18,768 bases of DNA, from positions 1 through 18,768 of IMG/VR virus record IMGVR_UViG_2718217897_000009; one strand, 5' to 3'. The position numbers and the translations under genes were made by a program. How positions within the stretch are numbered: the stretch's first letter is position 1; every line of letters starts with the position of its first letter. Below the pieces are notes generated by a model that worked only from the letters and a program-made list of their open reading frames with translations, did not search any database and was not told the DNA's origin. Shown here one piece after another: positions 1 to 18,003 of this stretch. The DNA is from a virus. Lineage: Duplodnaviria; Heunggongvirae; Uroviricota; Caudoviricetes.

Positions 1-933
1 TCAGCCCTTAAACACGTTATAGCCGAGTTGCTTAGCGACCGATGCCACCATTTTTTGACCGCGAACACTGTTGCCATCTTCGTCCAGCGGTGGTGAGAAC
101 GCGGCAATTCCCATCACTCCAGGGACGACCGCCAGAATACCGCCACCTACACCGCTTTTGCCCGGTAAACCAACACGATACGCCCAGTCACCGGAGCGAC
201 CATACAGCCCTTCCATCATCATTTCGGCCAGAATGTACGGCACGTTGTCGGCCTGAAGAACGCGTTTATGCGTCAACGGATTCACACCACCTGCCGCCAG
301 CGTCGCGCCAAGCGTTGCCAGTTCAATAGTATTGAGGAGCGTGGAGCACTGACGGGTATACACGTCACAGGCTTCCATTGCATCACAATAGAGATATCCG
401 GCGGAGTACAGCAGCCAGGCTATGGCCCGGTTATGGAAGTTGGTTGTTTGTTCCGACTGGTTGACTTCGTCAGAGAGCGCTACCTGCTCGCCAGCCAGTT
501 GCTGTTGGATATGTAAAATTCGCTGCCAGCGTTGTTCAACATTTTCAGCGTTAATCAGGCTGGTGGTGGCAATAGCGCCAGCATTTACCAGTGGCGAAAG
601 CGGTTTGCCGCCATGCAACTCTAAGGCGATAACTGAGTTAAAGGGCAATCCGGTCGGGTCAGCGCCAATTTTGTCCTGTACCGCCTGCGGGCCGACATCT
701 TCTAACGCAAGGGCTAACGTACAGACTTTCGAGATGGATTCCAGTGCAAAGCGGTAATCACTGTCACCCGCACTATAGACGTTGCCATCGCAGGTCACGA
801 TAGCCACTGCCGCCAGTTGACCTGGTACATTCGCCAGAAAGGGAATGTAATCGGCATTTTGTCCGCCGTTAAGTGAGTGAAATTGGGTGTAAGCCTGATC
901 CACTGCCTGCTGTAATTTGTTTGCATCTAACAT
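1..933 (-). CDS. glsA: Glutaminase 1 (GlsA/YbaS), complete 310-aa ORF; stop codon at window positions 1-3
   Basis: Full-length translation matches E. coli glutaminase YbaS as I remember it (MLDANKLQQAVDQAYTQFHSLNGG... GVGGGILAVVPGV...); serine-dependent glutaminase-type motifs present. Confidence 0.9.
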   Translation of the reverse strand: MLDANKLQQAVDQAYTQFHSLNGGQNADYIPFLANVPGQLAAVAIVTCDGNVYSAGDSDYRFALESISKVCTLALALEDVGPQAVQDKIGADPTGLPFNSVIALELHGGKPLSPLVNAGAIATTSLINAENVEQRWQRILHIQQQLAGEQVALSDEVNQSEQTTNFHNRAIAWLLYSAGYLYCDAMEACDVYTRQCSTLLNTIELATLGATLAAGGVNPLTHKRVLQADNVPYILAEMMMEGLYGRSGDWAYRVGLPGKSGVGGGILAVVPGVMGIAAFSPPLDEDGNSVRGQKMVASVAKQLGYNVFKG

Positions 934-1210
934 CTTTTGTTAACTCCTTTTTATAGATGCGGGAGGTAATTCCTCACCCCGGTGCCGATTTTCAGGCATC
1001 CTGATTTAACTTAGCACCCGCAACTTAACTACAGGAAAACAAAGAGATAAATGTCTAATCCTGATGCAAATCGAGCCGATTTTTTAATCTTTACGGACTT
1101 TTACCCGCCTGGTTTATTAATTTCTTGACCTTCCCCTTGCTGGTTTTTTAAGTACTGCGTGACGCAACATTACGCCACGCATTTTCAATGAGTTAACGAA
1201 TCAAACTAAT
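934..1210. other. Host-prophage junction; expected attL region between the glsA start and the 3' end of int
   Basis: Non-coding stretch between a host housekeeping gene and a P2-type integrase. In P2 the attachment site lies just downstream of int. The core sequence cannot be defined without the other prophage end. Confidence 0.35.
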
Positions 1211-2227
1211 TTAATTTTTCCTTTTTCTCTCAAAGTTTGGACACTCGAGTGGCATTCTCTGCAATGGATTATGCAGCACTGCGTCCTCCAGATATTCAGG
1301 CGAAAAATGCGCATAAGTCATCGTCTGCGATATATCTGCATGACCGAGTATTCTTTGCAGCGAAACAATATTCCCGCCGTTCATCATGAAATGAGTAGCA
1401 AAGGTGTGCCTAAGGACGTGAACAGCTTGCCCGTCTGGCAGGTTAGGCTTAGCCTCCTTGAGCTTTAAACGGAACCACTTATAACTCACGCGGAACAGTC
1501 GCCCCTCATTGCGATTTTTCACCAACCGGACAACATCGTCAGAAACGGGAACCACGCGACGCTTGCCATTCTTCGTGAAGTTGAAAACAACCTTGTTACC
1601 GACAATATGTTCAGCCATCAATTGGTAAGCCTCATTCCACCGCGCCCCTGTGGAAAGCAACAAAACAGCCATGCGGTAGTAATCTATTTTGTCTCCACAG
1701 ATAGAGAGAAATCTCTCTATTTCCTCAGTTGTCAAATAAGACATTTCGGGCGCTTTTTCTTTTAAGCGAGGAAGTGCTAACACCGGATTACCGCCGTGAT
1801 ATTCCCCAATCTCAGTCATTGCTTTCAGTACAGCACTAAGAGCAAAGAGATCGTGGTTGATTGTTGATGCCTTGATACCACTGTCAAGACGGCGCGATCT
1901 GTAATCAGCAATCATACGTTCATCAATCTCACACATCATTGGGTCACCCATATCAAGGCAAATACACCGAAGATTACTCAACCTGCGGTTCGCATAATCC
2001 TTATGGCGACCAATCAGCCTCCACCAGATAGCAATAAAATCGCTAAGATGACGCTTATCAATCAGATTGCCAAAACAATCAGGTGAAGGACTGCTCGCAA
2101 GAATTTCGCGCTCAAATGCTAGGGCCTGACTTCTTTTTTCAAATTTGCGACGGACGCGCTTCCCTTTGCCTCCGTTCAGCCTCATGTCCACGATGTAGCG
2201 ACCATCTTCGAGCTTCTTAATTGACAT
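1211..2227 (-). CDS. int: P2-family tyrosine integrase
   Basis: Translation MSIKKLEDGRY...LSTGARWNEA...HVLRHTFATHFMMNGGNIVSLQRILGH...TYAHF resembles P2 Int with the catalytic R..HxxR..Y region. Start chosen at the internal ATG (2225-2227) preceded by GGAGG; the ORF track extends 5 codons further. Confidence 0.9.
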   Translation of the reverse strand: MSIKKLEDGRYIVDMRLNGGKGKRVRRKFEKRSQALAFEREILASSPSPDCFGNLIDKRHLSDFIAIWWRLIGRHKDYANRRLSNLRCICLDMGDPMMCEIDERMIADYRSRRLDSGIKASTINHDLFALSAVLKAMTEIGEYHGGNPVLALPRLKEKAPEMSYLTTEEIERFLSICGDKIDYYRMAVLLLSTGARWNEAYQLMAEHIVGNKVVFNFTKNGKRRVVPVSDDVVRLVKNRNEGRLFRVSYKWFRLKLKEAKPNLPDGQAVHVLRHTFATHFMMNGGNIVSLQRILGHADISQTMTYAHFSPEYLEDAVLHNPLQRMPLECPNFERKRKN

Positions 2228-2296
2228 AAGAAGACCCTCCAACGGTCATATCTCCATCCTGAAAACAAATGGAGAAAATGTAATGTTTATAAAGTG

Positions 2297-2596
2297 TTAA
2301 CCAGTTAGTTTCCCGGATGGGGTAGACGTTGTTTCGCTCGGCCCACAGTGTGCGAGAGCTGGGGCTATTTGCCCGCGAGCAGGATCAATACGGTCATACA
2401 TAAACCAGTCCTGATACTTGTTAAAACGAGGATGCCCAAAAATCTTGATTGCAGCCTCTAAAGTCATTTTTGATTTGTCCCGCTCATATCCGTGATAGGT
2501 CGTGTAATTCAGCCCAACTAAATCAACAAGTTGTTGTTTTGTTAGTCTTTCAGAATCACGTATAAGAGCTAACTTCTCGCCTTGTGAAATTGACAT
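2297..2596 (-). CDS. P2 C-type immunity repressor (99 aa)
   Basis: 99-aa protein with HTH-like N-terminus and a C-terminal GQIAPALAH...ETTS.P.SG..TG segment that matches P2 repressor C as I remember it; sits immediately upstream of int on the same strand, as in P2. Confidence 0.8.
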   Translation of the reverse strand: MSISQGEKLALIRDSERLTKQQLVDLVGLNYTTYHGYERDKSKMTLEAAIKIFGHPRFNKYQDWFMYDRIDPARGQIAPALAHCGPSETTSTPSGKLTG

Positions 2597-2719
2597 ATTT
2601 ACGAGATCTCCATATAGTTACCTAAAAACCATACGCCACCGCATAATGCGAAATGGCGGCATATGCCAGATGCTGACTTAACAAGCCTCAACAAACGGCA
2701 ACAGAGGAGTGTACCAAAA
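2597..2719. promoter_or_regulatory. Immunity-switch intergenic region with two short perfect palindromes (CGCATAATGCG at 2640-2650, GGCATATGCC at 2658-2667)
   Basis: Palindromes read directly from the sequence between the divergently placed repressor and Cox-position ORFs; candidate operator sites. Confidence 0.35.
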
Positions 2720-3043
2720 ATGACAGAACGACGAGATCTCCAACAAATCACGACTCATCAACATTGTCGTCAGTATCCGCTAGACGGGTATCTGGCTATG
2801 AATATTTGCAAGATGACGGCCCGGCAAATAAGCCGCATTCGAGACATGAGTTTGAGTGAGTTGCGCAAGCAAGAGTATGTATCCAGGGAAGAGTTTGCCT
2901 ATATCACTGGGCGCACTTTCAAAGCGACAGGAAACTACCTGGACCGCAATGAAGATCTTGTCTACAGGGAGTATGCAACACCTAACGCCGCATACCCGCC
3001 CAGACAGCCGAATCACGCAGCTCTGGCAGCGCCTGAGCCGTAA
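2720..3043 (+). CDS. Putative Cox/Apl-position early regulator (start ATG 2720 preceded by GAGGAG); family not recognised
   Basis: ORF divergent from the repressor in the position of P2 cox. RBS GAGGAG sits 10 nt upstream of the ATG. The C-terminal 20 residues are proline-rich and look like out-of-frame translation, so the 3' end is uncertain. Confidence 0.35.
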   Translation: MTERRDLQQITTHQHCRQYPLDGYLAMNICKMTARQISRIRDMSLSELRKQEYVSREEFAYITGRTFKATGNYLDRNEDLVYREYATPNAAYPPRQPNHAALAAPEP

Positions 3044-3371
3044 TCACGGCGTAAGCAGCACAGAGATCCGCCATAACCCGGTCGCCAGCTATCTGGAACA
3101 ACTGGGGGCATCAGACCCCGAAGCCGCCGCACGTCTGGCATCCACACTTCAGCAGGACCAGAACACCATGAAAACCCCCGTTACCGTGCTTTCTGACATG
3201 CTGCGCGCCATCCGTGACGCAGAGCACGCACAGAGAATCAGTGAAACCACTGAACGCGCCCACCGCAAAGCAGACCTGCTGCGGGGTAGCCTGACCAGTG
3301 GAAACAAAAAACAGACAGAAACGGGACTCACAAATCCCGTAAATGAGCAAAAAACGCGCCGCGATATATGA
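2973..3371 (+). CDS. Hypothetical ORF overlapping the 3' end of the Cox-position ORF in another frame; possible frameshifted continuation
   Basis: Frame 0 from about 3000 to 3371 shows coding-like codon usage (G-rich first position, ctg/gcc/cgt codons). Start is uncertain; the ATG at 2973 follows AGGGAG with too short a spacer. Confidence 0.2.
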   Translation: MQHLTPHTRPDSRITQLWQRLSRNHGVSSTEIRHNPVASYLEQLGASDPEAAARLASTLQQDQNTMKTPVTVLSDMLRAIRDAEHAQRISETTERAHRKADLLRGSLTSGNKKQTETGLTNPVNEQKTRRDI

Positions 3372-3447
3372 AGCGCGCACAAAACAGGCAAAAGCGGGAT
3401 TTAAAAATCCTGTAACCGATTAATTAATCAACATAAGGAAAAGCGAC
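3300..3447 (+). promoter_or_regulatory. Candidate parC-like centromere/promoter region upstream of parM
   Basis: Inverted repeat ACGGGA-N8-TCCCGT, palindrome GGATTTAAAAATCC and direct repeats AAATCC(C/T)GTAA lie upstream of the AAGGAA RBS of parM. In plasmid R1, parC lies immediately upstream of parM. Confidence 0.3.
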
Positions 3448-4407
3448 ATGAAAATTTGTATCGACGACGGCTCCACCAACATCAAGCTGGCATGGACTGA
3501 GAACGGCAAACGCCGCAACGCCATCAGCCCGAACAGCTTCAAGTCGGAATGGTCTGCGCCGTTCGGTGGCACGCAGCCCGCGAACTACATGCTTGATGGC
3601 GTGCGCTATGGTTTTGATCCGGTCAGCGATCGCTTTGTCCAGACGACCGACACGCAATACCAGTACAGCGATGTGAATGTAATTGCCATTCATCACGCGC
3701 TGGTCAAATCAGGCATCACACCACAGGAGGTGGATGTGGTTGTCACCCTGCCACTGAGCGAGTATTTCGATACAAACGCACAGCCGGACATGGCCAACAT
3801 CAACCGCAAAAAAGCGAACGTCATGCGCCCGGTGGAGTACCAGAACGGCGAAGCATTCACTATCCGTAACGTACGGGTTATGCCTGAATCCATTCCGGCT
3901 GGCTTTAAGGCACTGGCTGACATGAGTCCGTTTGAATCCCTGCTGATTGTGGATTTGGGCGGAACCACGCTGGATGTGGCAAAGGTTCAGGGGCAACTGG
4001 CAGGTATTAGCCAAGTGTTTTGCGATCCACACGTAGGCGTTTCTCTGATGGCCGATGCCGTACTGTCGGTGATGGCCACTAACGGTATGCGCACCAGTCA
4101 CCACATCGCCAATACCATTATCGAACATCGCCATGATGAAGCCTGGCTGCGCCAGCACATCCACAATGACGCGCATTACAACAGCCTGATGGCGGTTATT
4201 CGTGAAAAGGAAGAAACACTGAAACAACGCGTGATCCGCGCGCTGGCGGTTTTTTCGGGTTACGGGCGGGTGATGGTTGTCGGTGGCGGGGCGGAGATTG
4301 TGGCACCCGCTATCCGCGAAGCCTGCGGAGTTAATGCGACTTTCATCGCGGACGGGGTGCCACAGTTTGCTCTGGTTAATGGGCTGTACGCAATGAACAA
4401 GGAGTAA
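3448..4407 (+). CDS. parM: ParM/StbA-family actin-like segregation ATPase
   Basis: N-terminus MKICIDDGSTNIKLAW...ISPNSFKSEW and internal DLGGTTLD, VMPESIPAG and VVGGGAE motifs match plasmid R1 ParM/StbA as I remember it. Confidence 0.85.
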   Translation: MKICIDDGSTNIKLAWTENGKRRNAISPNSFKSEWSAPFGGTQPANYMLDGVRYGFDPVSDRFVQTTDTQYQYSDVNVIAIHHALVKSGITPQEVDVVVTLPLSEYFDTNAQPDMANINRKKANVMRPVEYQNGEAFTIRNVRVMPESIPAGFKALADMSPFESLLIVDLGGTTLDVAKVQGQLAGISQVFCDPHVGVSLMADAVLSVMATNGMRTSHHIANTIIEHRHDEAWLRQHIHNDAHYNSLMAVIREKEETLKQRVIRALAVFSGYGRVMVVGGGAEIVAPAIREACGVNATFIADGVPQFALVNGLYAMNKE

Positions 4408-4411
4408 ACCA

Positions 4412-4726
4412 ATGACGACACCAACCAGACGGATAAGTTTCTATCTGAAGCCCGCCGCCGTCAAGAGTGAACAGGAGGCGTGCAATTACCTCGATAGCCT
4501 GCCAGCCTCCGAACGCAGCCGCGCGCAACGCGCGGCCTTTCTGGCTGGGCTAGCACTCATAAAGCGCAACCCAGCATTTGCCTACTGGATGGCCGAATGG
4601 CCAGAGGACAACCTCCCCTTCAATACCGTTAGCATCAAGGAAACATACCAGGCTAATCAGCCTAGCGGAGTTGAATGCAATTTTTATAAAATAAAAAAGA
4701 ATATTCAGACCTTATTCCCAGAATAA
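4412..4726 (+). CDS. parR: ParR-family centromere-binding adaptor
   Basis: 104-aa protein RRISFYLKP...LDSLP.SERSRAQRAAFLAGLAL...LFPE resembles R1 ParR (RRTIAFKLNP...LDSIPQGERSRLNRAALTAGLAL...LFPKE); AAGGAG RBS; immediately downstream of parM. Confidence 0.75.
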   Translation: MTTPTRRISFYLKPAAVKSEQEACNYLDSLPASERSRAQRAAFLAGLALIKRNPAFAYWMAEWPEDNLPFNTVSIKETYQANQPSGVECNFYKIKKNIQTLFPE

Positions 4727-4773
4727 TCTGATAATTGTATGTGAACTAATAAAATACATACCAACACATCATT

Positions 4774-4798
4774 CTGGCACCCTTGCTAACAGGGTGCC
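4774..4798. terminator. Hairpin (8-bp stem TGGCACCC/GGGTGCCA, 9-nt loop) between convergent parR and the cargo gene
   Basis: Inverted repeat read directly; no strong T-tract on either strand, so terminator function is tentative. Confidence 0.3.
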
Positions 4799-4809
4799 AA
4801 TGTTTCAAA

Positions 4810-5652
4810 TCATGATGAAATTGCCGAAGTTTTTTTATCGTGCTGAAGTACCGCAAATGCCATTAAAACCTCAAGAGAATAGCGACGATAATACTTAACA
4901 AAACCATAATAAAATACTCGGGATGCAGCAATACAAAACAAGAGAAGAAAACAAAAAGGTAACAGCCTGATATTTATATCTATTAAAAAGGATAGAAGGA
5001 ACAGGAACATAAGCAACCAGACTGAAGCGAGAAAAACAAATGTAATGTTTCTACAAAAACCATACAAAGCAACATAGTTTTGCATTTTCACCTGATGATT
5101 TTTAGAATGTTCATACACATAATGATAAGCAAGGCGAAAAAGATCGCCCCTCAAGCCCTTACGTCGATATAGCGTAGATACAGAAAAAACATTTATATAA
5201 CCATCTCGTATTTGCGGCCAAAAGACTTTAATAAGTATAGAATGCAGTGTGGTTTTATGATGTTCTGCTTTATCAAAAGCTGATACAGGAAGTAAAAAAA
5301 CTCCACGGATAAAATTAACTATACTGAACTTAGTATTATGTCGTTTTATTTTCAGGGAGCTTCTTTTAGAAAACAGATAAATTGAAGGATACCCAAGTTT
5401 ACTGTTCATATATTTTTCAATTAAACAGGATGATAGAATAGATATGAAGTGACCTGAAATATATGATAGAACGATTAATACCACATATATAAATACAGTT
5501 ATTATTTCTTTATATTTCAGGATATGGTTAAGAATACCTTCTATATAAACAGGGTTAATTTCAATAGAAAACAAAAAAAGGATAAACAGGAATAACCCAC
5601 CTGGAATTAGATAGCCCAAAAAGTCATAAAATGAAAACGGATTCTGTGTCAC
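4810..5652 (-). CDS. Hypothetical multi-pass membrane protein (280 aa, GTG start), low-GC cargo
   Basis: Long ORF in a markedly AT-rich segment; hydrophobic stretches at about residues 13-30, 50-75, 205-230 and 238-256; no recognised catalytic motif. Confidence 0.6.
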   Translation of the reverse strand: MTQNPFSFYDFLGYLIPGGLFLFILFLFSIEINPVYIEGILNHILKYKEIITVFIYVVLIVLSYISGHFISILSSCLIEKYMNSKLGYPSIYLFSKRSSLKIKRHNTKFSIVNFIRGVFLLPVSAFDKAEHHKTTLHSILIKVFWPQIRDGYINVFSVSTLYRRKGLRGDLFRLAYHYVYEHSKNHQVKMQNYVALYGFCRNITFVFLASVWLLMFLFLLSFLIDINIRLLPFCFLLLFCIAASRVFYYGFVKYYRRYSLEVLMAFAVLQHDKKTSAISS

Positions 5653-5691
5653 ACTTCCCCCTGTGTTACTTGTAAATTAAAGGGTAAAACA

Positions 5692-6189
5692 TTATTTGTT
5701 TTTCCGTAAAGGATTAGCTTTCCATCTTCTTACTAACCATTCGAATTCTTGATATGTAGTATCCGAATTAATGCTTTCTCTGATTGCTTTAATTAATGGC
5801 TCGGCAATATCATATGTCTCTACAACTGTTGTGTAAGATGTTCTTTTTATCATTTTTTCATCATAAATACCTTCACGAATACTTACAGCAACTCGCTCGT
5901 AAAAATTTAAAATATATTGAAATTTTCGACGCTCGGCCATTTCTTCATCTGTTATTGTGCAACCATCACAAGGAAAAACATAAGAACGAAATGATTTGCC
6001 TGAACGATGCACTTGTTTCAGGGTATGCAATGACTCTATATATTGCATATCTTGCCGACTCTCAAAAAGAAAGTTGGCCGTTTGAGTTTTTTTTGCGGTA
6101 CGCACATTGTAGATAATGGTTCCAATGGCAACCAAAACGCCAAGCAGAACAATAGCATTGCTGATGATTTGTAGTGTTATTGGGTTCAT
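5692..6189 (-). CDS. Hypothetical protein with a single N-terminal TM helix (165 aa), low-GC cargo
   Basis: ORF with hydrophobic N-terminus (IISNAIVLLGVLVAIGTIIY) followed by a charged soluble domain; same strand as and 39 bp upstream of the 280-aa gene. Confidence 0.6.
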   Translation of the reverse strand: MNPITLQIISNAIVLLGVLVAIGTIIYNVRTAKKTQTANFLFESRQDMQYIESLHTLKQVHRSGKSFRSYVFPCDGCTITDEEMAERRKFQYILNFYERVAVSIREGIYDEKMIKRTSYTTVVETYDIAEPLIKAIRESINSDTTYQEFEWLVRRWKANPLRKNK

Positions 6190-6214: not shown

Positions 6215-6225
6215 GGAGCAAATCC
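6215..6225. repeat. IS186 target-site duplication, left copy (GGAGCAAATCC)
   Basis: Identical 11-bp sequence directly flanks both ends of the element. Confidence 0.75.
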
Positions 6226-7564
6226 CATAAGCGCTAACTTAAGGGTTGAACCATCTGAAGAATGCGACGCCTCGGTGCCTCGTTAAGACGATGCCTCGCG
6301 TTCTTCAATTGCGTTTTGTAGGCTGTCAGGGATACTGTCCCACGAATGGCCACCTGTAAGCTCCAGATGACCATTTTTGTTATTCTCCACAACGAGTTAG
6401 TTCTTCTTTTCGGATCCGGCACTTCTGGGGGGGAAATCCAGCGATGGCTGGATTATGTCGTCAATTAAAAATGCGGCGAGTAGATTAGCAAATATCCACG
6501 CTTTCGCGAGTTCAGGTTCCTTTGCACGCAAAGCATCCAGGTGCAGCAAACTTTTGAGCCGCTTAAAAGCCAGTTCAATTTGCCATCGCAGACGGTAACA
6601 ATCAGCCACTTGCTCTGCTGAATATTCATCTTCCGGTAATGATGTTAGCAATAGCACATGGCCCGCTGCTTCCAGCGTTTCCGCCTGAACTACTCGTCCT
6701 TTTCGACGATTCTCGCTGAGCAGTCGGGTTTTACTGATTAATGCTTTTTCGGGAGGAAGTGATACGGCAATGAGACGTGCCGGAAAGGGAGCTCCGGCTT
6801 TTTTATTACCTGAATTGCCTATCATTACAGTGGTTTCACCGTTCTTACCGCAATCCAGCCCGCGCAGAAAACCCATCATGTCAAAGCGCATTCCTTCTGC
6901 AGTTAACCAGCGCAATCCTCGCCAGTGAACCCGGACGATATAATCAGCTTCTCCAAAAGCAAGTGAGCGGATACATTCGGGACGCGAACCGAATCCCCGG
7001 TCAGCAATGCGTATCTCGTCTGCCGTTTGCGCAAATCGGTCCAGCCGTTCAGCGTCTCTGCTGTCGGTTAGCTCAAAATCAGTGAACTGACAGGTATGAG
7101 GATCATATCCCATATGTAGTCGCCATTCAGCGCTGCCGCCCCCGGGCGCACTGATTGCTGTTCCATCGACAAGACGCAATCTCTTTCCGCTTGTACAACC
7201 CGTAACTGCGGCGCGTACAGCAAGTGTTTGTGCGGCAAGTATGCCAAACCAGTCGGCGGCATTCCGCAGCCGCTTCAGGAGAGCCACGTCAGATAATGTT
7301 GCAACGTCATGGAGCTGAGCCCATGCAGTGACTTCACGTAATGACATCCCCCCGGGGCCGTAAGCCAGCCCCAGACGTAGCAGAGTTGCAGCATCACGAA
7401 TTTCGCGGCGGCGGGTTAGAGCCCCGGCATTACGTGCCGAAGTATCCAGTTCTTCGGGCTTACCAATATGGGCCAGAATTGCTGACCAGTTATCGTGAGA
7501 GTAATTCATCGGCACGTTAAATCATATCAGGCGTAATACCACAACCCTTAAGTTAGCGCTTATG
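6226..7564 (-). mobile_element. IS186 (IS4 family), 1339 bp, perfect 23-bp terminal inverted repeats CATAAGCGCTAACTTAAGGGTTG
   Basis: Terminal inverted repeats at 6226-6248 and 7542-7564 read directly; the internal ORF matches the IS186 transposase; flanked by an 11-bp direct repeat. Confidence 0.9.
6397..7509 (-). CDS. IS186 transposase (DDE, IS4 family), 370 aa
   Basis: Translation MNYSHDNWSAILAHIGKPEELDTSARNAGALTRRREIRDAATLLRLGLAYGPGG... matches IS186 transposase over its full length as I remember it; the ORF track starts two codons earlier (MPMNY). Confidence 0.9.
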   Translation of the reverse strand: MNYSHDNWSAILAHIGKPEELDTSARNAGALTRRREIRDAATLLRLGLAYGPGGMSLREVTAWAQLHDVATLSDVALLKRLRNAADWFGILAAQTLAVRAAVTGCTSGKRLRLVDGTAISAPGGGSAEWRLHMGYDPHTCQFTDFELTDSRDAERLDRFAQTADEIRIADRGFGSRPECIRSLAFGEADYIVRVHWRGLRWLTAEGMRFDMMGFLRGLDCGKNGETTVMIGNSGNKKAGAPFPARLIAVSLPPEKALISKTRLLSENRRKGRVVQAETLEAAGHVLLLTSLPEDEYSAEQVADCYRLRWQIELAFKRLKSLLHLDALRAKEPELAKAWIFANLLAAFLIDDIIQPSLDFPPRSAGSEKKN

Positions 7565-7575
7565 GGAGCAAATCC
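7565..7575. repeat. IS186 target-site duplication, right copy (GGAGCAAATCC)
   Basis: Identical to 6215-6225. Confidence 0.75.
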
Positions 7576-8135: not shown

Positions 8136-9185
8136 TCAGGATATGGGCGGGGTATCCAGCAGTGCGTAAGGGTTAAAACGGATCACCTCTTCGCCCAGCC
8201 AGTCATTAACGTGCTTCATCGCCTCCATCACCGGCATCAGTTCGTTGATCGCAAACACTCTGGCCGCCTTCTCCACATCACCAAAAGAACCCTGCCCGCT
8301 GGGCATTGCGCCCATCAGTTGTGGTGGTACACGGTGAGCGGCCAGCACATCATCACGGGAGGCCGCCTTGACGTTCATGAACTCATCCCGGGCGGTGATC
8401 TGCTGGAATGGCAGGATTTGCACACCGTCCTTCCCGCCGTTCGGTGCCTGGAGTAGCAGGTTCTTGAATGCCCCACCGCCTCTTGCGCCCTGCAACGCTC
8501 TTTCGAGAGCCTGCATACTTTCGCGATCAACCTGTGCTGCCCCCACGTAAATGATGCAGCCTGCATGTGAACCGTTGTCATAGTAGAGTTTGCGGAAGCG
8601 ATCTGCCGAGTGCGACAGACTGGCAGACAACAGGCCACCGAGATATTCCGGCATTCCGTACATCTCCTGGTTGATGTCGGGGTTCAGCACATGGCAGACG
8701 CGCCCCTGACGGAACTCGTGGTCCTGCTCCCCCGTCTGCACAAACCAGTACACATCCGGCTCAACACCACGACGGACGTATTTTGCCAGCGCGTGCCGTA
8801 GTTCCAGTTTTCCGCCCAGCCTGTTGGTGCGCAGTTCAAGAAACGCATTCCCGAAGACAAACCAGTCCAGCGCAAAGGCGGAGAACGCCTGCCGGGAGAG
8901 CAGCCGGTGCGGAATGAAGCAGCCCAGTATGGCATTCCGCTTGAAGTACAGCGCCGACTGGTGCCACGAGGTCTGCCGGGATGCCCGCGCCAGTCCGTAC
9001 CAGTCAACGGGCGTTTCGTAGTATCTGCCGTTACTCAGGCAGTATGCGTTATCCAGCAGGTCGAGTGCGTGCGCATCGTAAGGGCCGTCGAACGAGAAGG
9101 CGCTTAACGACGGCTGGCGGCGCAGTGCCTCTGCCAGCGCCACGCCGTCATCGCGGCGCGAATATTTTCGTTTTTGTTTTTTCAT
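8136..9185 (-). CDS. Phage portal protein (P2 gpQ-like), 349 aa
   Basis: Size and position match P2 Q (344 aa); start ATG overlaps the stop of the upstream terminase ORF (ATGA), as expected for the P-Q arrangement. The family assignment is a recollection-level call. Confidence 0.7.
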   Translation of the reverse strand: MKKQKRKYSRRDDGVALAEALRRQPSLSAFSFDGPYDAHALDLLDNAYCLSNGRYYETPVDWYGLARASRQTSWHQSALYFKRNAILGCFIPHRLLSRQAFSAFALDWFVFGNAFLELRTNRLGGKLELRHALAKYVRRGVEPDVYWFVQTGEQDHEFRQGRVCHVLNPDINQEMYGMPEYLGGLLSASLSHSADRFRKLYYDNGSHAGCIIYVGAAQVDRESMQALERALQGARGGGAFKNLLLQAPNGGKDGVQILPFQQITARDEFMNVKAASRDDVLAAHRVPPQLMGAMPSGQGSFGDVEKAARVFAINELMPVMEAMKHVNDWLGEEVIRFNPYALLDTPPIS

Positions 9186-9751
9186 CAGAACTCAATCACC
9201 CGCATTCCTGTTGCACCGTCCTCATCGCCCAGCGGCTCGTTAATGACGGCAAGCATGGTTGCCCACGCGAGGTCGCCGTGGTTTACGCCGCGTGTGCGGT
9301 CTGTTTCATACGTTATTGCCCCGCCCGCCGTTTTTGCCTTGCGCACAGCGTTGAATGCCCTGACCAGCTCACGTTCGCCCCGGTCATACTCCCAGCGCCC
9401 CGCACGAATAATCTGCAGCATCTTCAGCACAAGCGCGCGTTTGGATGCCAGCGTGAACGTGTACGGCACGGCGGCAGGCCAGAACCGCCGCACTATCTGG
9501 TACACTGCCTCACCGTTACCGCCGGTCACGTCGATACCAATGTGCTGGACGTTGTATTTGTGCGTGAACTGCTCAATCACACGGGCCTGCTCTTCAAATT
9601 CCAGCCCCTGCACCTGCAACGTCTCCACCGTGCGGAATTTGCCGCCCCTGACGGCAGGCGGTACAACAACAGACAGCGCCCCGCTGACGTAGCAGGAAAC
9701 AGGGGGATTTGCCCCTGTTTTTTTGTTCAGAATGCAGCCTTCACCATTCAT
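9185..9751 (-). pseudogene. 5'-truncated terminase large subunit (C-terminal nuclease domain only; ATPase domain missing)
   Basis: 188-aa ORF with terminase-nuclease-like features (IGIDVTGG ... VNHGDLAWATMLAV near the C-terminus) but no ATPase domain. P2 gpP is about 590 aa. The first ~18 codons overlap a hairpin/T-run and a tail-gene remnant, so the annotated start is probably spurious. Confidence 0.55.
9696..9723 (+). terminator. Rho-independent terminator-like hairpin (AAACAGGGG/CCCCTGTTT stem, T7 run)
   Basis: Inverted repeat followed by TTTTTTT on the plus strand. Confidence 0.45.
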
Positions 9752-9850
9752 CTCTAATCGTATTCAGTAATTCGCCCGCAGAAACAAACTAAAATTCATC
9801 CCCCGCATCACGCCACTGAAAGCAGACGGTAAACTCCAGATTTTCAAACC
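9726..9850 (-). pseudogene. Diverged remnant of the 3' end of a gpU-like tail gene
   Basis: About 70% nucleotide similarity to the 3' end of the intact U gene at 10508-10640, including the shared TTCAGAATGCAGCC and CTGAAAGC blocks; the minus-strand translation (..EFTVCFQWRDAGDEF*FVSAGELLN..) parallels the U C-terminus (..EFSISFQRCDEDMRERFQSASAGELLN..) but contains a stop. Confidence 0.4.
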
Positions 9851-10171
9851 AGCGTCAGAAGTATTTAAATGGCACCAGATGTAATATGCAGGCGATTAAT
9901 ATGGTGTGCTTAAAGATCATAAAAGCGGGCAACATTAAAACTCCGGGCTGTGTAAATTACCGCCACTCATAATCAGAGATGAAAACAGAATTAAACTGGC
10001 GGAGTGGATTGTATACATAAAATAAGTTCAGTTGTTGACTTTCACTTCCGTGAATTGATGAAGGTTATTACAATACATCGGTATGATCTCTCCTCCTTAA
10101 AAGGGAGGACTTTTCAGAACGCAGAAATTATTTATAATCCCGTAGTGTTCTATACATGCAAACATTCTTTT

Positions 10172-10195
10172 CCCGCCCCGTGCGGGCTTTTTTTT
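10172..10195 (+). terminator. Terminator-like hairpin (CCCGC/GCGGG stem, T8 run)
   Basis: Read directly; preceded about 35 bp upstream by a perfect TATAAT (10133-10138). Confidence 0.4.
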
Positions 10196-10285
10196 GCCGC
10201 AAAGATACAGTAACAAACAAAATTGTAATCATGGCAATCAAAACACGAGAAACATTTTCAGCAATTGCAATAACAAATTAAAATA

Positions 10286-10315
10286 TTGCAATTGACAATC
10301 CCCGCTTAATATAAT
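10286..10315 (+). promoter_or_regulatory. Sigma70-like promoter (-35 TTGCAA, 18-bp spacer, -10 TATAAT)
   Basis: Hexamers read directly; a terminator lies about 45 bp downstream, giving a predicted transcript of about 60 nt. Confidence 0.35.
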
Positions 10316-10359
10316 CCCTTCCGGAACATAGAACATTAAATCTTCACACAATGCATGTT

Positions 10360-10383
10360 GCCCTCTTTATGAGGGCTTTTTTT
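10360..10383 (+). terminator. Rho-independent terminator (GCCCTC/GAGGGC stem, T7 run)
   Basis: Perfect 6-bp GC-rich stem, 5-nt loop, TTTTTTT. Confidence 0.5.
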
Positions 10384-10401
10384 ATTTCCAGAATATCACC
10401 A

Positions 10402-10430
10402 TTGCCATCATCGGGCGATTTATATATAGT
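10402..10430 (+). promoter_or_regulatory. Sigma70-like promoter (-35 TTGCCA, 17-bp spacer, -10 TATAGT)
   Basis: Hexamers read directly; a terminator lies about 45 bp downstream. Confidence 0.3.
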
Positions 10431-10476
10431 CAGAATGTATTGACAACATTTTGCTTCTTTTCCATGAAGGCCATAA

Positions 10477-10506
10477 GGGAGTGCTTTTTACACTCCCTCT
10501 TTTTTT
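10477..10506 (+). terminator. Rho-independent terminator (GGGAGTG/CACTCCC stem, T7 run) abutting the U stop codon on the opposite strand
   Basis: Perfect 7-bp stem, 7-nt loop, T-run; oriented to stop plus-strand transcription before it runs antisense into the tail operon. Confidence 0.5.
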
Positions 10507-10508
10507 AT

Positions 10509-10980: not shown

Positions 10981-13900
10981 TTAGTCCCTGTCGCGGAAGC
11001 TGTTCATGCCTGTACGCGCCTGTCTGCGCATCTCTTCGCGGACGGCCTCACCAACCAGTTTTGCCAGTTCGCGCGGATTCTGTGTGTTGACGTTGTGCAG
11101 ATGTACATGTATCTCACCGGAAAACGCAGCAGCCTGTGGTTGTGGCGTAGCTTCCCTTCTGGCCGCTTCCGGTCGCAACGGGGGCCGGATAGCCTCCGCG
11201 ACGGGAGCGGAAGCCATCACCGCCCCCGTCATACCTTCAGCCACGTTACGCGGCTGCGGCAGTGCGGAGACCTGGCGGGCCACGTTCACAACGGGAGCGG
11301 GGGCACTCACCGCAGGGGTGGGCAGTACACCTGTCAGTCTCTGCCAGAGCATTGTCAGTGCATCCGTCAGCCCTACGCCCGCCGATACCGCCTGCACCGT
11401 CCGGACAACCTGCGGTGCTTTCCACTCGCCGTGAATGATTTCGGGTCCGGGCAGATTTTTGAAAACAATATCGCCGGGACCGACGCGCCTGCGTGTTTCC
11501 TCAAGAAGCCCGCCTGTATTGCTGGCGGTTTTCTGTATCCCCTGCCGGAACCATGCCTCATCCAGCGGGGATTTGCTGCCGGGTTTGCCGACCGGATTGT
11601 CCGCCGTTCCCCTCACCTCTCCGGGAACAGCAGGGGCAGGTTTATTGTCACCGTTGTTTTCCGCTGCATCTGATGACCACGACCATGTTTTCTGCACCAT
11701 TTTTTTCTGTGCAGGATCCCACTCCCACGCAACCGGCGCTTTTTGTGTGGACTGTTTTGCGGCGCTCTCCTGGAGTTTTTGCGTCTCCTTCTGTGCCTCT
11801 TTGATGCCGTCCGGGATGACACCCAGCCACTTCAGCACGGTACCGAGGCCATCAAGGAGCAGCGTCATCGGCCCCAGCACAATGTTCTGAATGACCCACC
11901 CCAGCGTTTTCCCGAACGACTCCCCTGCACTGGTGCATTTGTCGAGCGTCTCTTTTGAGGCGTTTGCAGGTTCAAGCAGGCGGGTGAACCACTCCCACAC
12001 GGCTTTGATGCCGTCACCAATCAGCCCGAACACCGGAGCCAGCGATGCAAAGGCTTCCCGCAGCGGTTGCAGCGCCTCCCACACTCCGGCAAAAAAGCCG
12101 GAAAAAAACGCGCTGATCGGATCCCAGTATTTCCACACCAGAACCGCGCCGCCCACCAGGGCGGCAACAATCAGCCCGACCGGACTGAACAGCGCCCCCA
12201 GTGCGCCACCCAGAACCGACACCGCCCCCGTGACCAGCCCCCACAGCGCAGGCAGCCCCGTCAGGCGCAGTGCCATCGCAGACACAAGCCGGACAGCACC
12301 ACCAATGCCACCGCCCCCCGTCAGCAGCCCCAGTCCCAGTTGCAGTTTTGCCAGCGGCCCCGCAATCAGCCCGAGCGTCAGTGACAGCGCACCGAACGTG
12401 GAAGACAGCGCCAGAACACTCCCGCCGGTCAGCACCAGGACTCTGACCAGCGCCTGATGCTCTCCGGCCCATTCGCGCATCCGGGTCACCCACGCGCTCA
12501 CCGTCTGAACCAGCCCGCGCAAATCCTCGGTCACAGTACCGAAGATGTCCGTGCGTAGCCCTGAGAACGCACCACTCAGCGCCTGAATATCGCCGGAAAG
12601 ATTACCGCGCAGCGTCTGCCCCATGCGGTCTGCCACGCCGCTGACATCACCCAGGTTGTCACGGACATCGGCCAGCGCCTTTAAGAACTGCGGGATCTGG
12701 TCAACGGAGAGGTCTTCAACGGGTGTGCCGAACAGCGCAATGGCCGTGTTCGCCCGCTCTGCCGGGTCACGGATGGCCAGCAGTGCACGGGCGGTCACCT
12801 GCATCGCCTGACGAGCGGTGCTGCCTCCCTGTGCAATGGCAGCAGACACCCGCTCAGCATTCAGGCCGAGAGTCTCATACGCTGAGACACTGGATTTCGA
12901 CATATCCGAACCCCGGATGCTGAACTCCTTCACGGCATCGCCGGTTTTGTCCAGCGCAAACTTGCCCTGCTTTGCCATCTCAACCAGCAGACTCATTGTC
13001 TCGCTGCCGGTGAAGCCCATGTTGCGGAAGTGGGTGGAATACTCGTGCAGAATTTCCGGCAGTTCATCGCGCATTTCAGCGGACATACGCTGCATCCCTG
13101 CCGTCATCAGGTTAGTAGCCTCGTCACTGCTGGCAGCCAGCCCGTTCTTCATCATGATGGCAGCGGCCTGAATGCTCTGCGGCACATCAACACCAAAGAC
13201 GGTCCGCATATCCAGCGCACGACGGCTGATGCGCTCCAGTTCCCGGTCGCCGGTGTCGCCCAGTGCACCGAGCGTACTGCGTACCGCACTCACAGCCTCC
13301 GCAGCACCGGCAAAATCAGCGAGACCGTCAGCCTGTATGTTACGAATAATGTGGGTGTAACGTGCGCCATCCTGTGCGCCTTCCCCCGAACCGGCTGCGA
13401 TGACCGCACCGTGCTGTTCGGACTCCATCGCCGGAGCCATCATACGCTGCGCCGCATACAGGCCGCCTGTACCCGCCGCCATCGCCACAGCCCCTGTGTT
13501 GCGCAGTTTTTCCGCCTGTGCCTTCGCGGCCTCATAGCGGCTCTGTGCCTGCGTCACGCGAGCCAGAGCCTGCCGTTCACGCTCGAGCTGCTCGTTGTAC
13601 TGCTGTGTACGGCGAACGGCACTTTCAATGGTGCGGCTGCTGCCGGAAAGCAGAATGCCGTGTTTGCGCATTTCCCCTGCCGCCGCCTGAAGTTTTTCGC
13701 GTTCGCGCGTGCGCAGCTCGTTCAGGCGCTCAAGCCGCGCGGAGAGTGCCGCCAGCGTTTCACGCTGCTTTTCGGAGAGGATGTTACCGTTCTGCTCTGC
13801 CTTTCGCAGCCCGGCGAGCCTCTGCTCCGCGCGGGCAATCTGTTCGCGGTATTTACTGAGATTTCCGGCGGCACGTTCGAACACCTTCGACTGCCTGTCG

Positions 13901-14067
13901 AGCGTCTGTATGTTGTCCTGCGTCTTCTGAAGGGATTCAGTGAGAGCGCCCACCTGACGGCGGGCGTTTTCGGTCGGGCGTGTCAGCCGGTCAATTGCGC
14001 CAAAGCTGACACGAATATCAAGGGATTTCACTGTTGCGGACTCCGCTACGTTGCGCCGCCCGCTCAC
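10981..14067 (-). CDS. Tail tape measure protein (gpT-like), 1028 aa, GTG start
   Basis: Very long ORF with an N-terminal coiled-coil-like region, a central Gly/Ala/Leu-rich hydrophobic segment and a position between E/E' and U; typical of tape measure proteins. Confidence 0.9.
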   Translation of the reverse strand: MSGRRNVAESATVKSLDIRVSFGAIDRLTRPTENARRQVGALTESLQKTQDNIQTLDRQSKVFERAAGNLSKYREQIARAEQRLAGLRKAEQNGNILSEKQRETLAALSARLERLNELRTREREKLQAAAGEMRKHGILLSGSSRTIESAVRRTQQYNEQLERERQALARVTQAQSRYEAAKAQAEKLRNTGAVAMAAGTGGLYAAQRMMAPAMESEQHGAVIAAGSGEGAQDGARYTHIIRNIQADGLADFAGAAEAVSAVRSTLGALGDTGDRELERISRRALDMRTVFGVDVPQSIQAAAIMMKNGLAASSDEATNLMTAGMQRMSAEMRDELPEILHEYSTHFRNMGFTGSETMSLLVEMAKQGKFALDKTGDAVKEFSIRGSDMSKSSVSAYETLGLNAERVSAAIAQGGSTARQAMQVTARALLAIRDPAERANTAIALFGTPVEDLSVDQIPQFLKALADVRDNLGDVSGVADRMGQTLRGNLSGDIQALSGAFSGLRTDIFGTVTEDLRGLVQTVSAWVTRMREWAGEHQALVRVLVLTGGSVLALSSTFGALSLTLGLIAGPLAKLQLGLGLLTGGGGIGGAVRLVSAMALRLTGLPALWGLVTGAVSVLGGALGALFSPVGLIVAALVGGAVLVWKYWDPISAFFSGFFAGVWEALQPLREAFASLAPVFGLIGDGIKAVWEWFTRLLEPANASKETLDKCTSAGESFGKTLGWVIQNIVLGPMTLLLDGLGTVLKWLGVIPDGIKEAQKETQKLQESAAKQSTQKAPVAWEWDPAQKKMVQKTWSWSSDAAENNGDNKPAPAVPGEVRGTADNPVGKPGSKSPLDEAWFRQGIQKTASNTGGLLEETRRRVGPGDIVFKNLPGPEIIHGEWKAPQVVRTVQAVSAGVGLTDALTMLWQRLTGVLPTPAVSAPAPVVNVARQVSALPQPRNVAEGMTGAVMASAPVAEAIRPPLRPEAARREATPQPQAAAFSGEIHVHLHNVNTQNPRELAKLVGEAVREEMRRQARTGMNSFRDRD

Positions 14068-14598: not shown

Positions 14599-14613
14599 TT
14601 TTCTTTCTCCTGT

Positions 14614-14632
14614 GGCGGCACAATGTGCCGCC
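14614..14632. other. Perfect 19-bp palindrome GGCGGCACA-A-TGTGCCGCC in the FII-E intergenic region
   Basis: Read directly; no T-tract; possible mRNA stem-loop modulating expression between tube and chaperone genes. Confidence 0.4.
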
Positions 14633-14644
14633 CTGTTAATGCTG

Positions 14645-17639: not shown

Positions 17640-17689
17640 CCGGAATAAAATCACGACGATTCACCTTCACGAAAAAGGAGGTCTTCGTC

Positions 17690-17947: not shown

Positions 17948-18003
17948 GCACATGCCTGTTTTTGTTTTTGTTTCTGTATTATTTTGATTCTGGAGTTTTA
18001 TTT

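What the first reader, a model, noticed from the sequence alone, without database searches (positions are those of the whole stretch)
3300..4726. Plasmid-type ParMR (type II) partition module embedded in the early region of an integrated P2-like prophage
ParM and ParR homologues with an upstream repeat-rich candidate parC sit immediately after the Cox-position ORF, where P2 carries replication genes B and A. No rolling-circle initiator (A-like) gene is present in the window. This suggests either an ancestor able to persist as a segregating episome or module exchange with a plasmid.
Basis: partly seen in the sequence, partly recalled or inferred. Interest (0 to 1): 0.55.

Follow-up and report, generated by a model that had tools for sequence, protein, structure and literature searches.

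The report
Known ParMR cassette, decayed P2-like prophage
The window really does carry an intact actin-type ParM/ParR DNA-segregation cassette, but it is the standard cassette found next to the replication gene in P88-like (P2-family) prophages in about a quarter of E. coli genomes and already noted in the literature; it looks oddly placed here only because this dead prophage has deleted almost all of its replication gene.

Summary
The genes are confirmed. 3448-4407 is ParM and 4412-4726 is ParR/StbB. They are preceded by a non-random two-copy 38-nt repeat (3305-3342 and 3378-3415).

The positional argument is wrong. Bases 2988-3371 are the last 127 codons of the rolling-circle initiator gpA. 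A 5.5-kb deletion across an 11-bp microhomology (2988-2998) removed the rest of the early operon. In intact relatives the order is gpA(940 aa)-ParM-ParR-variable cargo-portal Q. This holds in phage P88/Xuanwuvirus, O157:H7 prophages and 1302 of 5426 complete E. coli genomes. That position is the tin/old slot of P2, not the B/A slot.

Rousset et al. 2022 already wrote that about a fourth of P2-like phages carry a putative partition system that might allow plasmid maintenance. RefSeq and GenBank annotate the genes as such.

New detail from this work:
- parM is under purifying selection (dN/dS about 0.1).
- ParR has a conserved DNA-binding N-terminal domain, a saturated linker and a conserved ParM-binding tail.
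- The repeats travel with the cassette but are not an R1-style 11-bp iteron array.
- 1440 of 1442 copies are chromosomal.

Function remains untested. The best guess is segregation of excised or unintegrated phage circles during early-operon expression. The copy in this window is a stranded relic.

The parts
2590..2618 (+). Pe-like early promoter (TTGACA-17-TATAGT). After the deletion it is the only consensus sigma-70 site upstream of parMR on the + strand.
   Evidence: 11/12 match. Divergent from the C-type repressor gene 2297-2596(-).
2720..3043 (+). 93 of 157 codons are kept, then it runs out of frame into the gpA remnant. The deletion junction, an 11-bp microhomology, is at 2988-2998.
   Evidence: Window 1-2998 equals the TUM9803 prophage L007 9752-12749 (99.8%). 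Window 2988-3268 equals L007 18272-18552. The full ORF is 157 aa in L007. No Pfam or PHROG family was found.
2988..3371 (+). 3' remnant of the replication initiator gene A (last 127 of 940 codons). The Phage_GPA catalytic domain, residues 179-503, is gone.
   Evidence: RefSeq pseudogene annotation. Alignment to intact gpA genes. Domain position.
3269..4440 (+). The block that always travels together: last ~32 codons of gpA, both repeats, parM and the 5' end of parR. The left edge is where similarity to a ParMR-less sister prophage stops. The right edge is where parR alleles start to diverge.
   Evidence: left edge, different gpA C-termini. (nucleotide identity 90-100% up to ~4440-4560, then 20-50%).
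3305..3342 (+). Repeat 1 of the candidate centromere (parC). It lies inside the gpA 3' coding end and contains ACGGGA-N8-TCCCGT.
3378..3415 (+). Repeat 2 of the candidate parC, in the 76-nt gpA-parM spacer. It contains GCGGGATTTAAAAATCCTGT.
3448..4407 (+). parM, actin-like segregation ATPase, 319 aa, intact.
   Evidence: 98.7% identical to phage P88 ParM. dN/dS about 0.1.
4412..4726 (+). parR/stbB, centromere-binding adaptor, 104 aa, intact. Residues 1-64 form the DNA-binding domain, 65-93 a hypervariable linker and 94-104 the conserved tail KKNIQTLFPE. Its Shine-Dalgarno AAGGAG lies inside the end of parM.
4775..4799 (.). Perfect 9-bp inverted repeat (TGGCACCCT / AGGGTGCCA) between the convergent parR and the 280-aa ORF. 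Probably a bidirectional terminator.
   Evidence: I19. Function is inferred.
4810..6189 (-). Co-resident hotspot cargo, not part of ParMR: a 280-aa multi-pass membrane protein and a DUF4760 protein.
   Evidence: The same pair follows ParMR in O157:H7 and in an IncC plasmid insert. The arrangement is listed in Rousset Table S5A.
6223..7567 (-). IS421 (IS4 family) inserted in the hotspot.
8136..9185 (-). Portal gene Q, the right border of the gpA-gpQ hotspot.

Best explanation
Bases 3269-4726 are the ParM/ParR (type II, actin-like) DNA-segregation cassette that is a near-constant feature of P88-like (Xuanwuvirus, P2-family) temperate phages. It sits directly downstream of the rolling-circle initiator gpA, at the left edge of the gpA-gpQ accessory hotspot.

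Shown: the identity of both proteins, the location, the deletion history, purifying selection, and the domain logic of ParR.

Inferred mechanism in an intact phage:
1. parMR has no consensus promoter of its own and no terminator after gpA. It is therefore probably transcribed with the early (replication) operon on infection or induction.
2. ParR dimers bind the two palindromic repeats that straddle the gpA stop codon.
3. The conserved C-terminal tail of ParR captures ParM-ATP filaments.
4. Filament growth pushes sister circular phage genomes apart. Both daughter cells then inherit a copy while the genome is extrachromosomal, that is, before integration or after excision.

In this window the cassette is a stranded relic. 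The prophage has lost 813 of 940 gpA codons, most of the early operon, most of the terminase gene and all head, lysis and baseplate genes, so nothing is left to segregate. What remains is Pe - truncated ORF - parM - parR under an intact C-type repressor.
For: Identity.

Location:
- The order gpA(940 aa)-ParM-ParR-cargo-Q is seen in O157:H7, in a complete 34.5-kb phage circle and in six further loci with three ParR alleles.
- All 14 phage records that have this gpA 3' end also have ParM.
- parM is present in 1302 of 5426 complete E. coli genomes, against 1370 with any match to 2250-4800. About 95% of genomes carrying this gpA type therefore carry ParMR.

Deletion: an 11-bp microhomology and 5,522 bp missing relative to a prophage with the same int and C at the same glsA site. 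The remnant lacks the GPA domain.

Signs of function:
- parM mean dN/dS is 0.10.
- The ParR tail is kept (pN 0.11-0.17 against pS 0.5-0.58) while the linker is saturated.
- The tail motif is shared with plasmid ParRs: NIKNLFPDDD, and KKNAMKLIN in R100.
- The invariant strand TRRISFYLKP goes with invariant 5' CGGGA arms.
- AlphaFold2 gives helices 20-61, a low-confidence stretch 65-89 and a C-terminal helix 91-101 (low confidence overall).

Repeats belong to the cassette: they are absent from the ParMR-less sister prophage, whose gpA C-terminus differs from exactly that point. They are unique in the phage genome and are not due to chance.

Co-transcription: there is no sigma-70 consensus site and no + strand terminator between gpA and parM.
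Against: - The centromere assignment is weak. There are only two repeat copies and no 11-bp periodicity (z 1.3 at lag 11, against 4.9 for R100 parC).
- No promoter is embedded in the repeats, unlike R1.
- All available sequences are at least 90% identical there, so conservation says little.
- The same palindromes could act as RNA hairpins (z -2.4) or as minus-strand terminators.
- The promoter scan is a strict consensus scan, so a weak ParR-regulated promoter could exist.
- No experiment on this cassette was found in the searched literature.
- A phage that integrates and makes many circles by rolling-circle replication has no obvious need for active partition.
Confidence: 0.7

Rival explanations
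1. The cassette lets these phages live as stable plasmid prophages (true phage-plasmids). 2022.
For: - One PLSDB record is a complete 34,461-bp circular copy of such a phage.
- A P2-like phage of Burkholderia, KS14, is a proven plasmid prophage (PMC3091744).
- The plasmid prophage D6 uses a 47.5%-identical StbA/StbB pair.
Against: - 1440 of 1442 parM places in complete E. coli genomes are chromosomal.
- Every element examined keeps a tyrosine integrase and sits at an att site.
- No plasmid-type Rep is annotated. The only initiator is gpA, which lies in the repressor-controlled early operon. KS14, by contrast, has RepB and ParA and no gpA.
- The phage of the circular record is 100% identical over 12.5 kb to a chromosomally integrated prophage in another strain from the same series.
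- At least a dozen phage-sized P2-like 'plasmid' records exist in PLSDB, and only one has this ParM. ParMR is therefore not enriched among episome-like records.
- The other five plasmid hits are large records of 228 kb to 1.4 Mb. The two inspected carry the prophage inserted in other DNA.
Confidence: 0.12
2. The cassette is a competition or defence cargo of the anti-phage hotspot. For example, it could cause partition incompatibility against ParMRC plasmids or phage-plasmids, or interfere with invading DNA.
For: - It lies in the gpA-gpQ locus that holds tin/old, retrons, restriction systems and similar cargo (PMC9122126).
- It is followed by other accessory genes.
Against: - ParM and ParR have no PADLOC match.
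- In the ParR-R100 alignment the strand positions that differ are R/T, S/A, Y/K and K/N. That these are the DNA-facing positions is an inference. The repeats share nothing with the plasmid upstream regions examined, so cross-reaction with plasmid centromeres is unlikely.
- Unlike true hotspot cargo, the cassette is nearly constant in this phage lineage.
- Rousset et al. themselves filed it under 'other functions'.
Confidence: 0.06
3. The cassette is a functionless hitch-hiker or fossil in the whole lineage, not only in this window.
For: - In this window it sits in a dead prophage.
- No phenotype has been reported in the searched literature.
Against: - parM dN/dS is about 0.1 across E. coli, E. 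albertii and Salmonella copies.
- The ParR N-terminal domain and tail are selectively conserved across deeply diverged alleles.
- 1278 of 1302 genomes have parM at 80% coverage or more.
- Inducible, plaque-forming phages such as P88 and PhiSM retain it.
Confidence: 0.05
4. Sub-claim rival: the two 38-nt repeats are not a centromere. They would instead be RNA or DNA hairpins with another role (transcript stabilisation, attenuation between gpA and parM, or terminators for antisense transcription), and the real ParR site lies elsewhere or is minimal.
For: - Both palindromes are followed by T-rich tracts on the minus strand, and one is called terminator-like.
- The variant GCGGGA...TCCTGT still pairs through G-U in + strand RNA (sequence).
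- There is no iteron periodicity.
Against: - They are confined to ParMR-carrying phages and lie exactly in the cassette-specific block.
- They are spaced 73 bp apart, about 7 helical turns, so on one face of the helix.
- The arms are conserved while the 8-nt spacers vary, as expected for a protein-bound palindrome.
- No other repeat family exists near the cassette.
Confidence: 0.25

Closest known systems
StbA/StbB (ParM/ParR) of Escherichia phage P88 and other Xuanwuvirus (Peduoviridae) phages and prophages
   Same: It is the same element. ParM is 98-99% identical. The gpA 3' end plus repeats are 95-98% identical. The order gpA-ParM-ParR is the same.
   Different: In this window the host prophage is defective: gpA is reduced to 127 codons, IS421 is inserted, and the terminase and morphogenesis genes are deleted.
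ParMRC of plasmid R1/R100 (type II partition archetype)
   Same: - The order centromere-parM-parR is the same.
- ParM aligns full length with the ATP-binding motifs kept.
- The ParR N-terminal domain is 41% identical.
- ParR has a basic/hydrophobic C-terminal tail.
- An ATAAGGA Shine-Dalgarno precedes parM in both.
   Different: - R100 parC is two sets of 11-bp iterons around a TTGACA promoter, with strong lag-11 periodicity (z 4.9). Here there are two 38-nt palindrome-bearing repeats, no periodicity (z 1.3) and no consensus promoter.
- ParR is shorter here, 104 aa against 116 aa.
- The host replicon is an integrating phage, not a plasmid.
ParM/ParR of IncK/IncFII-type plasmids (e.g. CP056802, NZ_CP032181)
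   Same: These carry the closest non-phage ParM (about 52% identical). The ParR tail motif N(I/V)xxLFP(D/E) is shared.
   Different: Their ParR is 140-143 aa. Their upstream regions are long, T-rich and iteron-like, and lack the CGGGA palindromes.
StbA/StbB of phage D6 (P1-like plasmid prophage)
   Same: It is a phage-borne ParM homologue, 47.5% identical. Its GenBank note itself cites similarity to P88 StbA.
   Different: D6 is a 91-kb plasmid prophage, where partition has an obvious role. Its repeats differ (TCTCA-type).
P2 tin/old locus, i.e. the gpA-gpQ hotspot (Rousset et al. 2022, PMC9122126)
   Same: It is the same genomic slot. The paper counts the StbA + Plasmid_stab_B arrangement among hotspot contents and estimates it in about a fourth of P2-like phages.
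   Different: ParMR is not freely swapped cargo. It is linked to one gpA type in about 95% of cases. The truly variable DNA starts inside parR.
Burkholderia phage KS14 (P2-like plasmid prophage)
   Same: It is a P2-family phage with a partition function.
   Different: KS14 has RepB plus type I ParA, no gpA and no chromosomal integration. The P88-like phages have gpA, a tyrosine integrase and type II ParMR.

Membership tests
Type II (ParMRC) partition system | Actin-like ATPase ParM with both ParM domains and nucleotide-binding motifs | tested here: met
   Pfam StbA_N 3.9e-82 and ParM C-terminal domain 6.8e-69. Full-length alignment to 1mwk at E 7.6e-93, with DDGSTNIKL, MPESIPAG, DLGGTTLD and GGGAE conserved. 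The role of these motifs is from my knowledge of R1 ParM.
Type II (ParMRC) partition system | Small ribbon-helix-helix adaptor ParR encoded directly downstream of parM | tested here: met
   Pfam Plasmid_stab_B 7.7e-29. 41% identity to R100 ParR. Weak match to pB171 ParR 2jd3. 4-nt gap to parM, with a Shine-Dalgarno inside the parM end.
Type II (ParMRC) partition system | ParR C-terminal peptide that binds ParM | tested here: inconclusive
   The tail KKNIQxLFPE is conserved across alleles whose linkers are saturated. It resembles plasmid ParR tails, and a C-terminal helix is predicted at low confidence. Binding itself was not testable.
Type II (ParMRC) partition system | parC centromere: array of repeats upstream of parM that contains the autoregulated promoter | tested here: inconclusive
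   A significant two-copy 38-nt repeat with palindromic cores is present and is specific to the cassette. It has only two copies, no 11-bp periodicity and no consensus promoter.
Type II (ParMRC) partition system | Resides on an autonomously replicating low-copy replicon | tested here: not met
   1440 of 1442 copies in complete E. coli genomes are chromosomal and lie inside integrated prophages. In this window the prophage cannot replicate, because the GPA domain is lost.
Type II (ParMRC) partition system | Stabilises an unstable replicon in cis | not testable with these tools
   Needs a plasmid-loss assay.
P88-like / Xuanwuvirus (P2-family) prophage, gpA-gpQ region | Flanked by replication endonuclease gpA on one side and portal gpQ on the other | tested here: met
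   gpA remnant at 2988-3371 and Q at 8136-9185 in the window. Full gpA in relatives.
P88-like / Xuanwuvirus (P2-family) prophage, gpA-gpQ region | Near-identity to the cassette of sequenced, inducible phages of the genus | tested here: met
   94.7-98.7% ParM identity to 14 phage records. 95-98.5% nucleotide identity over 2988-3460.
Phage-plasmid (P1, N15, SSU5, D6, KS14 type) | Plasmid-type replication initiator and extrachromosomal lysogeny, usually without a chromosomal integration module | tested here: not met
   Integrase present and element integrated. No Rep other than gpA is annotated in the complete early region of the O157:H7 prophage (by annotation only). One circular record exists, but the identical phage is integrated in another strain.
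Known anti-phage defence system | Match to a catalogued defence protein family | tested here: not met
   No PADLOC hit for ParM or ParR.

The most novel reading that the evidence does not exclude
P88-like peduoviruses may be facultative 'integrative phage-plasmids'. ParMR, co-expressed with gpA, would actively segregate unintegrated or excised phage circles. Both daughters of an infected or partially derepressed cell would then inherit the genome, giving higher lysogenisation or a heritable carrier state. This would be the first actin-like partition system shown to serve an integrating, rolling-circle phage. Its centromere would be a minimal two-site element partly embedded in the initiator gene. 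It would also explain the roughly 95% linkage between ParMR and the 940-aa gpA variant.
Probability: 0.25. Interest if true: 0.6.

Novelty: already known. Interest (0 to 1): 0.28.

Why it matters
As a discovery it adds little. The cassette is annotated in RefSeq and GenBank, belongs to named phages (P88, PhiSM and others), and its presence in about a fourth of P2-like prophages, with the plasmid-maintenance speculation, was published in 2022.

What remains open is why an integrating phage lineage found in 24% of complete E. coli genomes keeps an actin-type segregation machine under purifying selection. That question is cheaply testable. The answer would bear on how temperate phages manage the extrachromosomal interval before integration or after excision, and on the boundary between phages and plasmids.

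For annotation practice, the case shows that 'missing replication gene plus partition genes' in a prophage can be a deletion artefact rather than a sign of lifestyle.

Tried and rejected
1. R1-style iteron array. Autocorrelation of 3300-3420 shows no 10-11-bp periodicity (z 1.3). The R100 parC positive control gives z 4.9. Rejected.
2. Covariation between ParR alleles (55-98% identical) and the repeats. None is seen. The test is uninformative because the divergence lies in the linker, while the DNA-binding strand is invariant.
3. Search for intermediate relatives to allow covariation tests. Phage and plasmid collections jump from at least 94% to about 52% ParM identity. All ParR homologues found share the same N-terminus. 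The genome scan gave only E. albertii, Salmonella and one 'Vagococcus' contig, all 97-99% identical.
4. An own promoter for parMR. No consensus site was found. By eye, TTTAAA-16-ATTAAT would leave almost no leader.
5. Defence-system identity. No PADLOC hit.
6. Apparent inversion of the tail block FI-U relative to D-ogr. Rejected, because this is the native order in the lineage. It is contiguous in strain 2-1 and arranged the same way in the 34.5-kb circle.
7. Whether the strain with the circular 34.5-kb record also has an integrated copy. That assembly is not in the E. coli collection. Only an identical integrated copy in a different strain was found. Inconclusive.
8. AlphaFold2 of the ParR monomer. 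Mean pLDDT is 58.8, so it is used only as weak support and no fold search was attempted.
9. Literature. Several keyword hits for 'ParM' were author names or references (Parma, Parmley) and irrelevant. PMC3754688 (cdt-V P2-like prophages of O157) is not held.
Full report
**What is in the sequence.**
- 3448-4407(+) encodes a 319-aa protein with both ParM Pfam domains (StbA_N 3.9e-82, ParM C-terminal domain 6.8e-69).
- It aligns from residue 2 to 316 with R1 ParM (1mwk, E 7.6e-93). The alignment keeps DDGSTNIKL, MPESIPAG, DLGGTTLD and GGGAE.
- 4412-4726(+) encodes a 104-aa Plasmid_stab_B protein (7.7e-29). It is 41% identical to R100 ParR over residues 6-63 and weakly similar to pB171 ParR.
- The upstream 'repeats' are a single two-copy family: 38 nt at 3305-3342 and 3378-3415, 30/38 identical, 73 bp apart. 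None of 2000 randomisations reached 30/38; the maximum was 26.
- Each copy carries a CGGGA-N8-TCCYG palindrome. This palindrome occurs nowhere else in the window or in a complete 34.5-kb relative.

**What the window is.** It is E. coli chromosome. The sequence is 100% identical to strains AST205 and E100341, and to AST19 for the left part. A P2-family prophage remnant lies between glsA and copA. It contains, in order:
- integrase (1211-2242, -)
- C-type repressor (2297-2596, -)
- a strong Pe-like promoter (2590-2618)
- a truncated early ORF
- ParM and ParR
- two minus-strand accessory genes
- IS421
- portal Q
- a terminase fragment
- the tail genes U, T, E, FII and FI
- D, ogr, and a broken methyltransferase

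**The 'missing A gene' is a deletion.**
- RefSeq annotates 2988-3371 as 'replication endonuclease, incomplete, missing N-terminus'.
- Strain TUM9803 carries a prophage at the same glsA site with the same integrase, repressor and first early ORF (99.8% over window 1-2998). It has a complete early operon and a 947-aa gpA.
- Window 2988-3268 matches the 3' end of that gpA. The two matches overlap by 11 bp (2988-2998). A 5,522-bp deletion across a microhomology therefore fused codon 93 of the 157-codon early ORF, out of frame, to the last 127 codons of gpA.
- The Phage_GPA domain lies at residues 179-503 of the 940-aa protein and is gone.
- A second deletion removed most of the terminase gene and all head, lysis, baseplate and fibre genes. 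Sister strains have lost still more.

**Where the cassette normally sits.** In intact relatives the order is gpA(940 aa) - 76 nt - ParM - 4 nt - ParR - variable genes - portal Q - terminase P. This order is seen in:
- an O157:H7 prophage
- a complete circular 34.5-kb copy
- six further loci
- two prophage copies carried on large plasmid records

That position is the P2 tin/old slot, not the B/A slot.

The cassette belongs to sequenced, inducible phages (P88, 520873, P884B11, PhiSM and others), with ParM 94.7-98.7% identical.

parM is present in 1302 of 5426 complete E. coli genomes (24%), and 1440 of 1442 places are chromosomal. Only about 68 further genomes match the 2250-4800 query without parM. 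All 14 phage records with this gpA 3' end have ParM. The cassette is therefore close to a lineage-constant feature of this gpA type rather than freely swapped cargo. TUM9803 (Dam + AAA ATPase instead) shows that it can be replaced.

**Anatomy of the module.**
- *Left edge.* Similarity to the ParMR-less TUM9803 prophage stops at window 3268, and the gpA C-termini differ from that point (...RKADLLRGSLTSGNKKQTETGLTNPVNEQKTRRDI against ...RKATLLQKRGKQHF...). The last ~32 codons of gpA and repeat 1 therefore belong to the cassette.
- *Right edge.* Nucleotide identity among ParMR loci is 90-100% through parM and the first 10-50 codons of parR. It then collapses to 20-50% and stays low into the downstream cargo.
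- *parM* is under purifying selection (mean dN/dS 0.10).
- *ParR alleles* range from 98% down to about 50% identity to the window protein, but the divergence is regional.
  - Residues 1-64 are conserved (pN 0.04-0.055, pS 0.24-0.30), with TRRISFYLKP invariant.
  - Residues 65-93 are saturated (pN 0.6, pS 0.8-0.96).
  - The tail (KKNIQxLFPE or GNIRALFPE) is again conserved (pN 0.11-0.17, pS 0.5-0.58).
- The tail motif recurs in plasmid ParRs.
- A low-confidence AlphaFold2 model gives helices 20-61, an unstructured stretch 65-89 and a terminal helix 91-101.
- This is the expected layout of a ParR: a DNA-binding dimerisation domain, a flexible linker and a ParM-capturing tail.

**Is 3305-3415 a centromere?**
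- *For.* The repeats are cassette-specific, unique in the phage genome and non-random. They are spaced about 7 helical turns apart. Their arms are conserved while the 8-nt spacers vary.
- *Against.* There are only two copies. There is no R1-like periodicity (lag-11 z 1.3 against 4.9 for R100 parC). There is no embedded consensus promoter. All available copies are too similar for conservation to be informative.
- *Alternative.* The palindromes could be RNA or terminator hairpins.
- I rate 'parC' at roughly 0.6-0.7. It is not demonstrated.

**How it most likely works.** The identity of the motor and adaptor, their selective maintenance and their position are shown. The steps below are inferred.
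1. There is no consensus promoter and no terminator between gpA and parM. The cassette is therefore probably read with the early replication operon, on infection or induction, when the phage DNA is circular and being copied.
2. ParR on the two palindromes would nucleate ParM filaments that push sister circles apart.
3. Both daughter cells would then receive a genome before integration or after excision.

In this window there is no initiator, no packaging and no excisable, replicable unit, so the cassette is a relic kept silent behind an intact repressor.

**Rivals.**
- *Stable plasmid lysogeny.* This is disfavoured. 99.9% of copies are chromosomal. Integrase is always present. The only initiator is gpA. 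KS14, the proven P2-like plasmid prophage, has RepB and ParA instead. The one circular record is identical to an integrated prophage in another strain. P2-like phage-sized 'plasmid' records are not enriched for ParMR.
- *Defence or incompatibility role.* There is no PADLOC support. The ParR strand residues and the repeats differ from the plasmid ones examined.
- *Lineage-wide pseudogene status.* This is contradicted by the selection data.

**What is known.**
- Rousset et al. 2022 (PMC9122126) defined the gpA-gpQ hotspot. [quoted passage not shown] - The GenBank record of phage D6 notes similarity of its StbA to P88 StbA.
- I found no experimental work on the cassette.

**Verdict.** Function is still untested, which gives it modest residual interest.

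Noticed in passing
window 4440-4726 (parR 3' part); loci L003, L004, L008, L011: parR is mosaic. Its first 10-50 codons are about 97% identical among all loci. Its linker (codons 65-93) is saturated for both synonymous and non-synonymous change, and at least three deep allele groups exist. The recombination boundary of the variable hotspot lies inside parR.
   Followed up: partly
window 4810-6189 (- strand): A 280-aa multi-pass membrane protein (PHROG 12528; weak PADLOC hit to Csx27, E 1.2e-5) and a DUF4760 protein (PHROG 2284) form a recurrent gene pair downstream of ParMR. The pair is seen in O157:H7 and other loci and is listed in Rousset Table S5A. Its function is unknown; it is a possible defence candidate.
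   Followed up: partly
window 3269-3371: The last ~32 codons of gpA differ completely between ParMR-carrying phages and a sister prophage with other cargo. The extreme C-terminus of the initiator is therefore swapped together with the accessory module.
   Followed up: partly
window 6223-7567: IS421 lies in the opposite orientation in strain AST19 at the same position. The match is reverse-complemented with 26-bp overlaps at both ends. This is either an in-place inversion or an assembly difference.
   Followed up: no
window 9185-10508 and 11169-17683: The terminase gene is truncated at about 9685 and all head, lysis, baseplate and fibre genes are missing. Strains AST19 and EC0026B additionally lack window 11169-17683 (T, E, FII, FI, D). 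This shows stepwise decay of the same remnant.
   Followed up: partly
window 17944-18768: The DNA methyltransferase downstream of ogr is split by an internal stop. RefSeq marks it as a pseudogene in AST19.
   Followed up: no
L007 (E. coli TUM9803, NZ_CP135671.1 4209386-4222029): An intact prophage sits at the same glsA site with the same integrase and repressor. Between gpA and Q it carries a DNA adenine methylase, a 565-aa AAA ATPase and a hypothetical protein instead of ParMR.
   Followed up: partly
L003 (pZ1323PEC0009-2, NZ_CP148288.1): A complete 34,461-bp P88-like phage is deposited as a circular 'plasmid' from a cat isolate. A 100%-identical copy over 12.5 kb is chromosomally integrated in human isolate Z1323HEC0067 of the same series.
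   Followed up: partly
L006 (NZ_JBQPOM010000071.1, 'Vagococcus sp. WN89Y'): A 226-kb contig of a Vagococcus (Firmicute) assembly carries a ParM 97% identical to the E. coli prophage gene. This is probably enterobacterial contamination of that assembly.
   Followed up: no
L017 (pC-Ec2-KPC, IncC, NZ_MK439959.1) and L018 (pS2122_1, IncHI2, NZ_CP110658.1): P88-like prophage DNA including gpA-ParM-ParR lies inside large resistance plasmids. In one it is cut by IS26. In the other it is flanked by chromosomal pheA/tyrA/aroF genes.
   Followed up: partly
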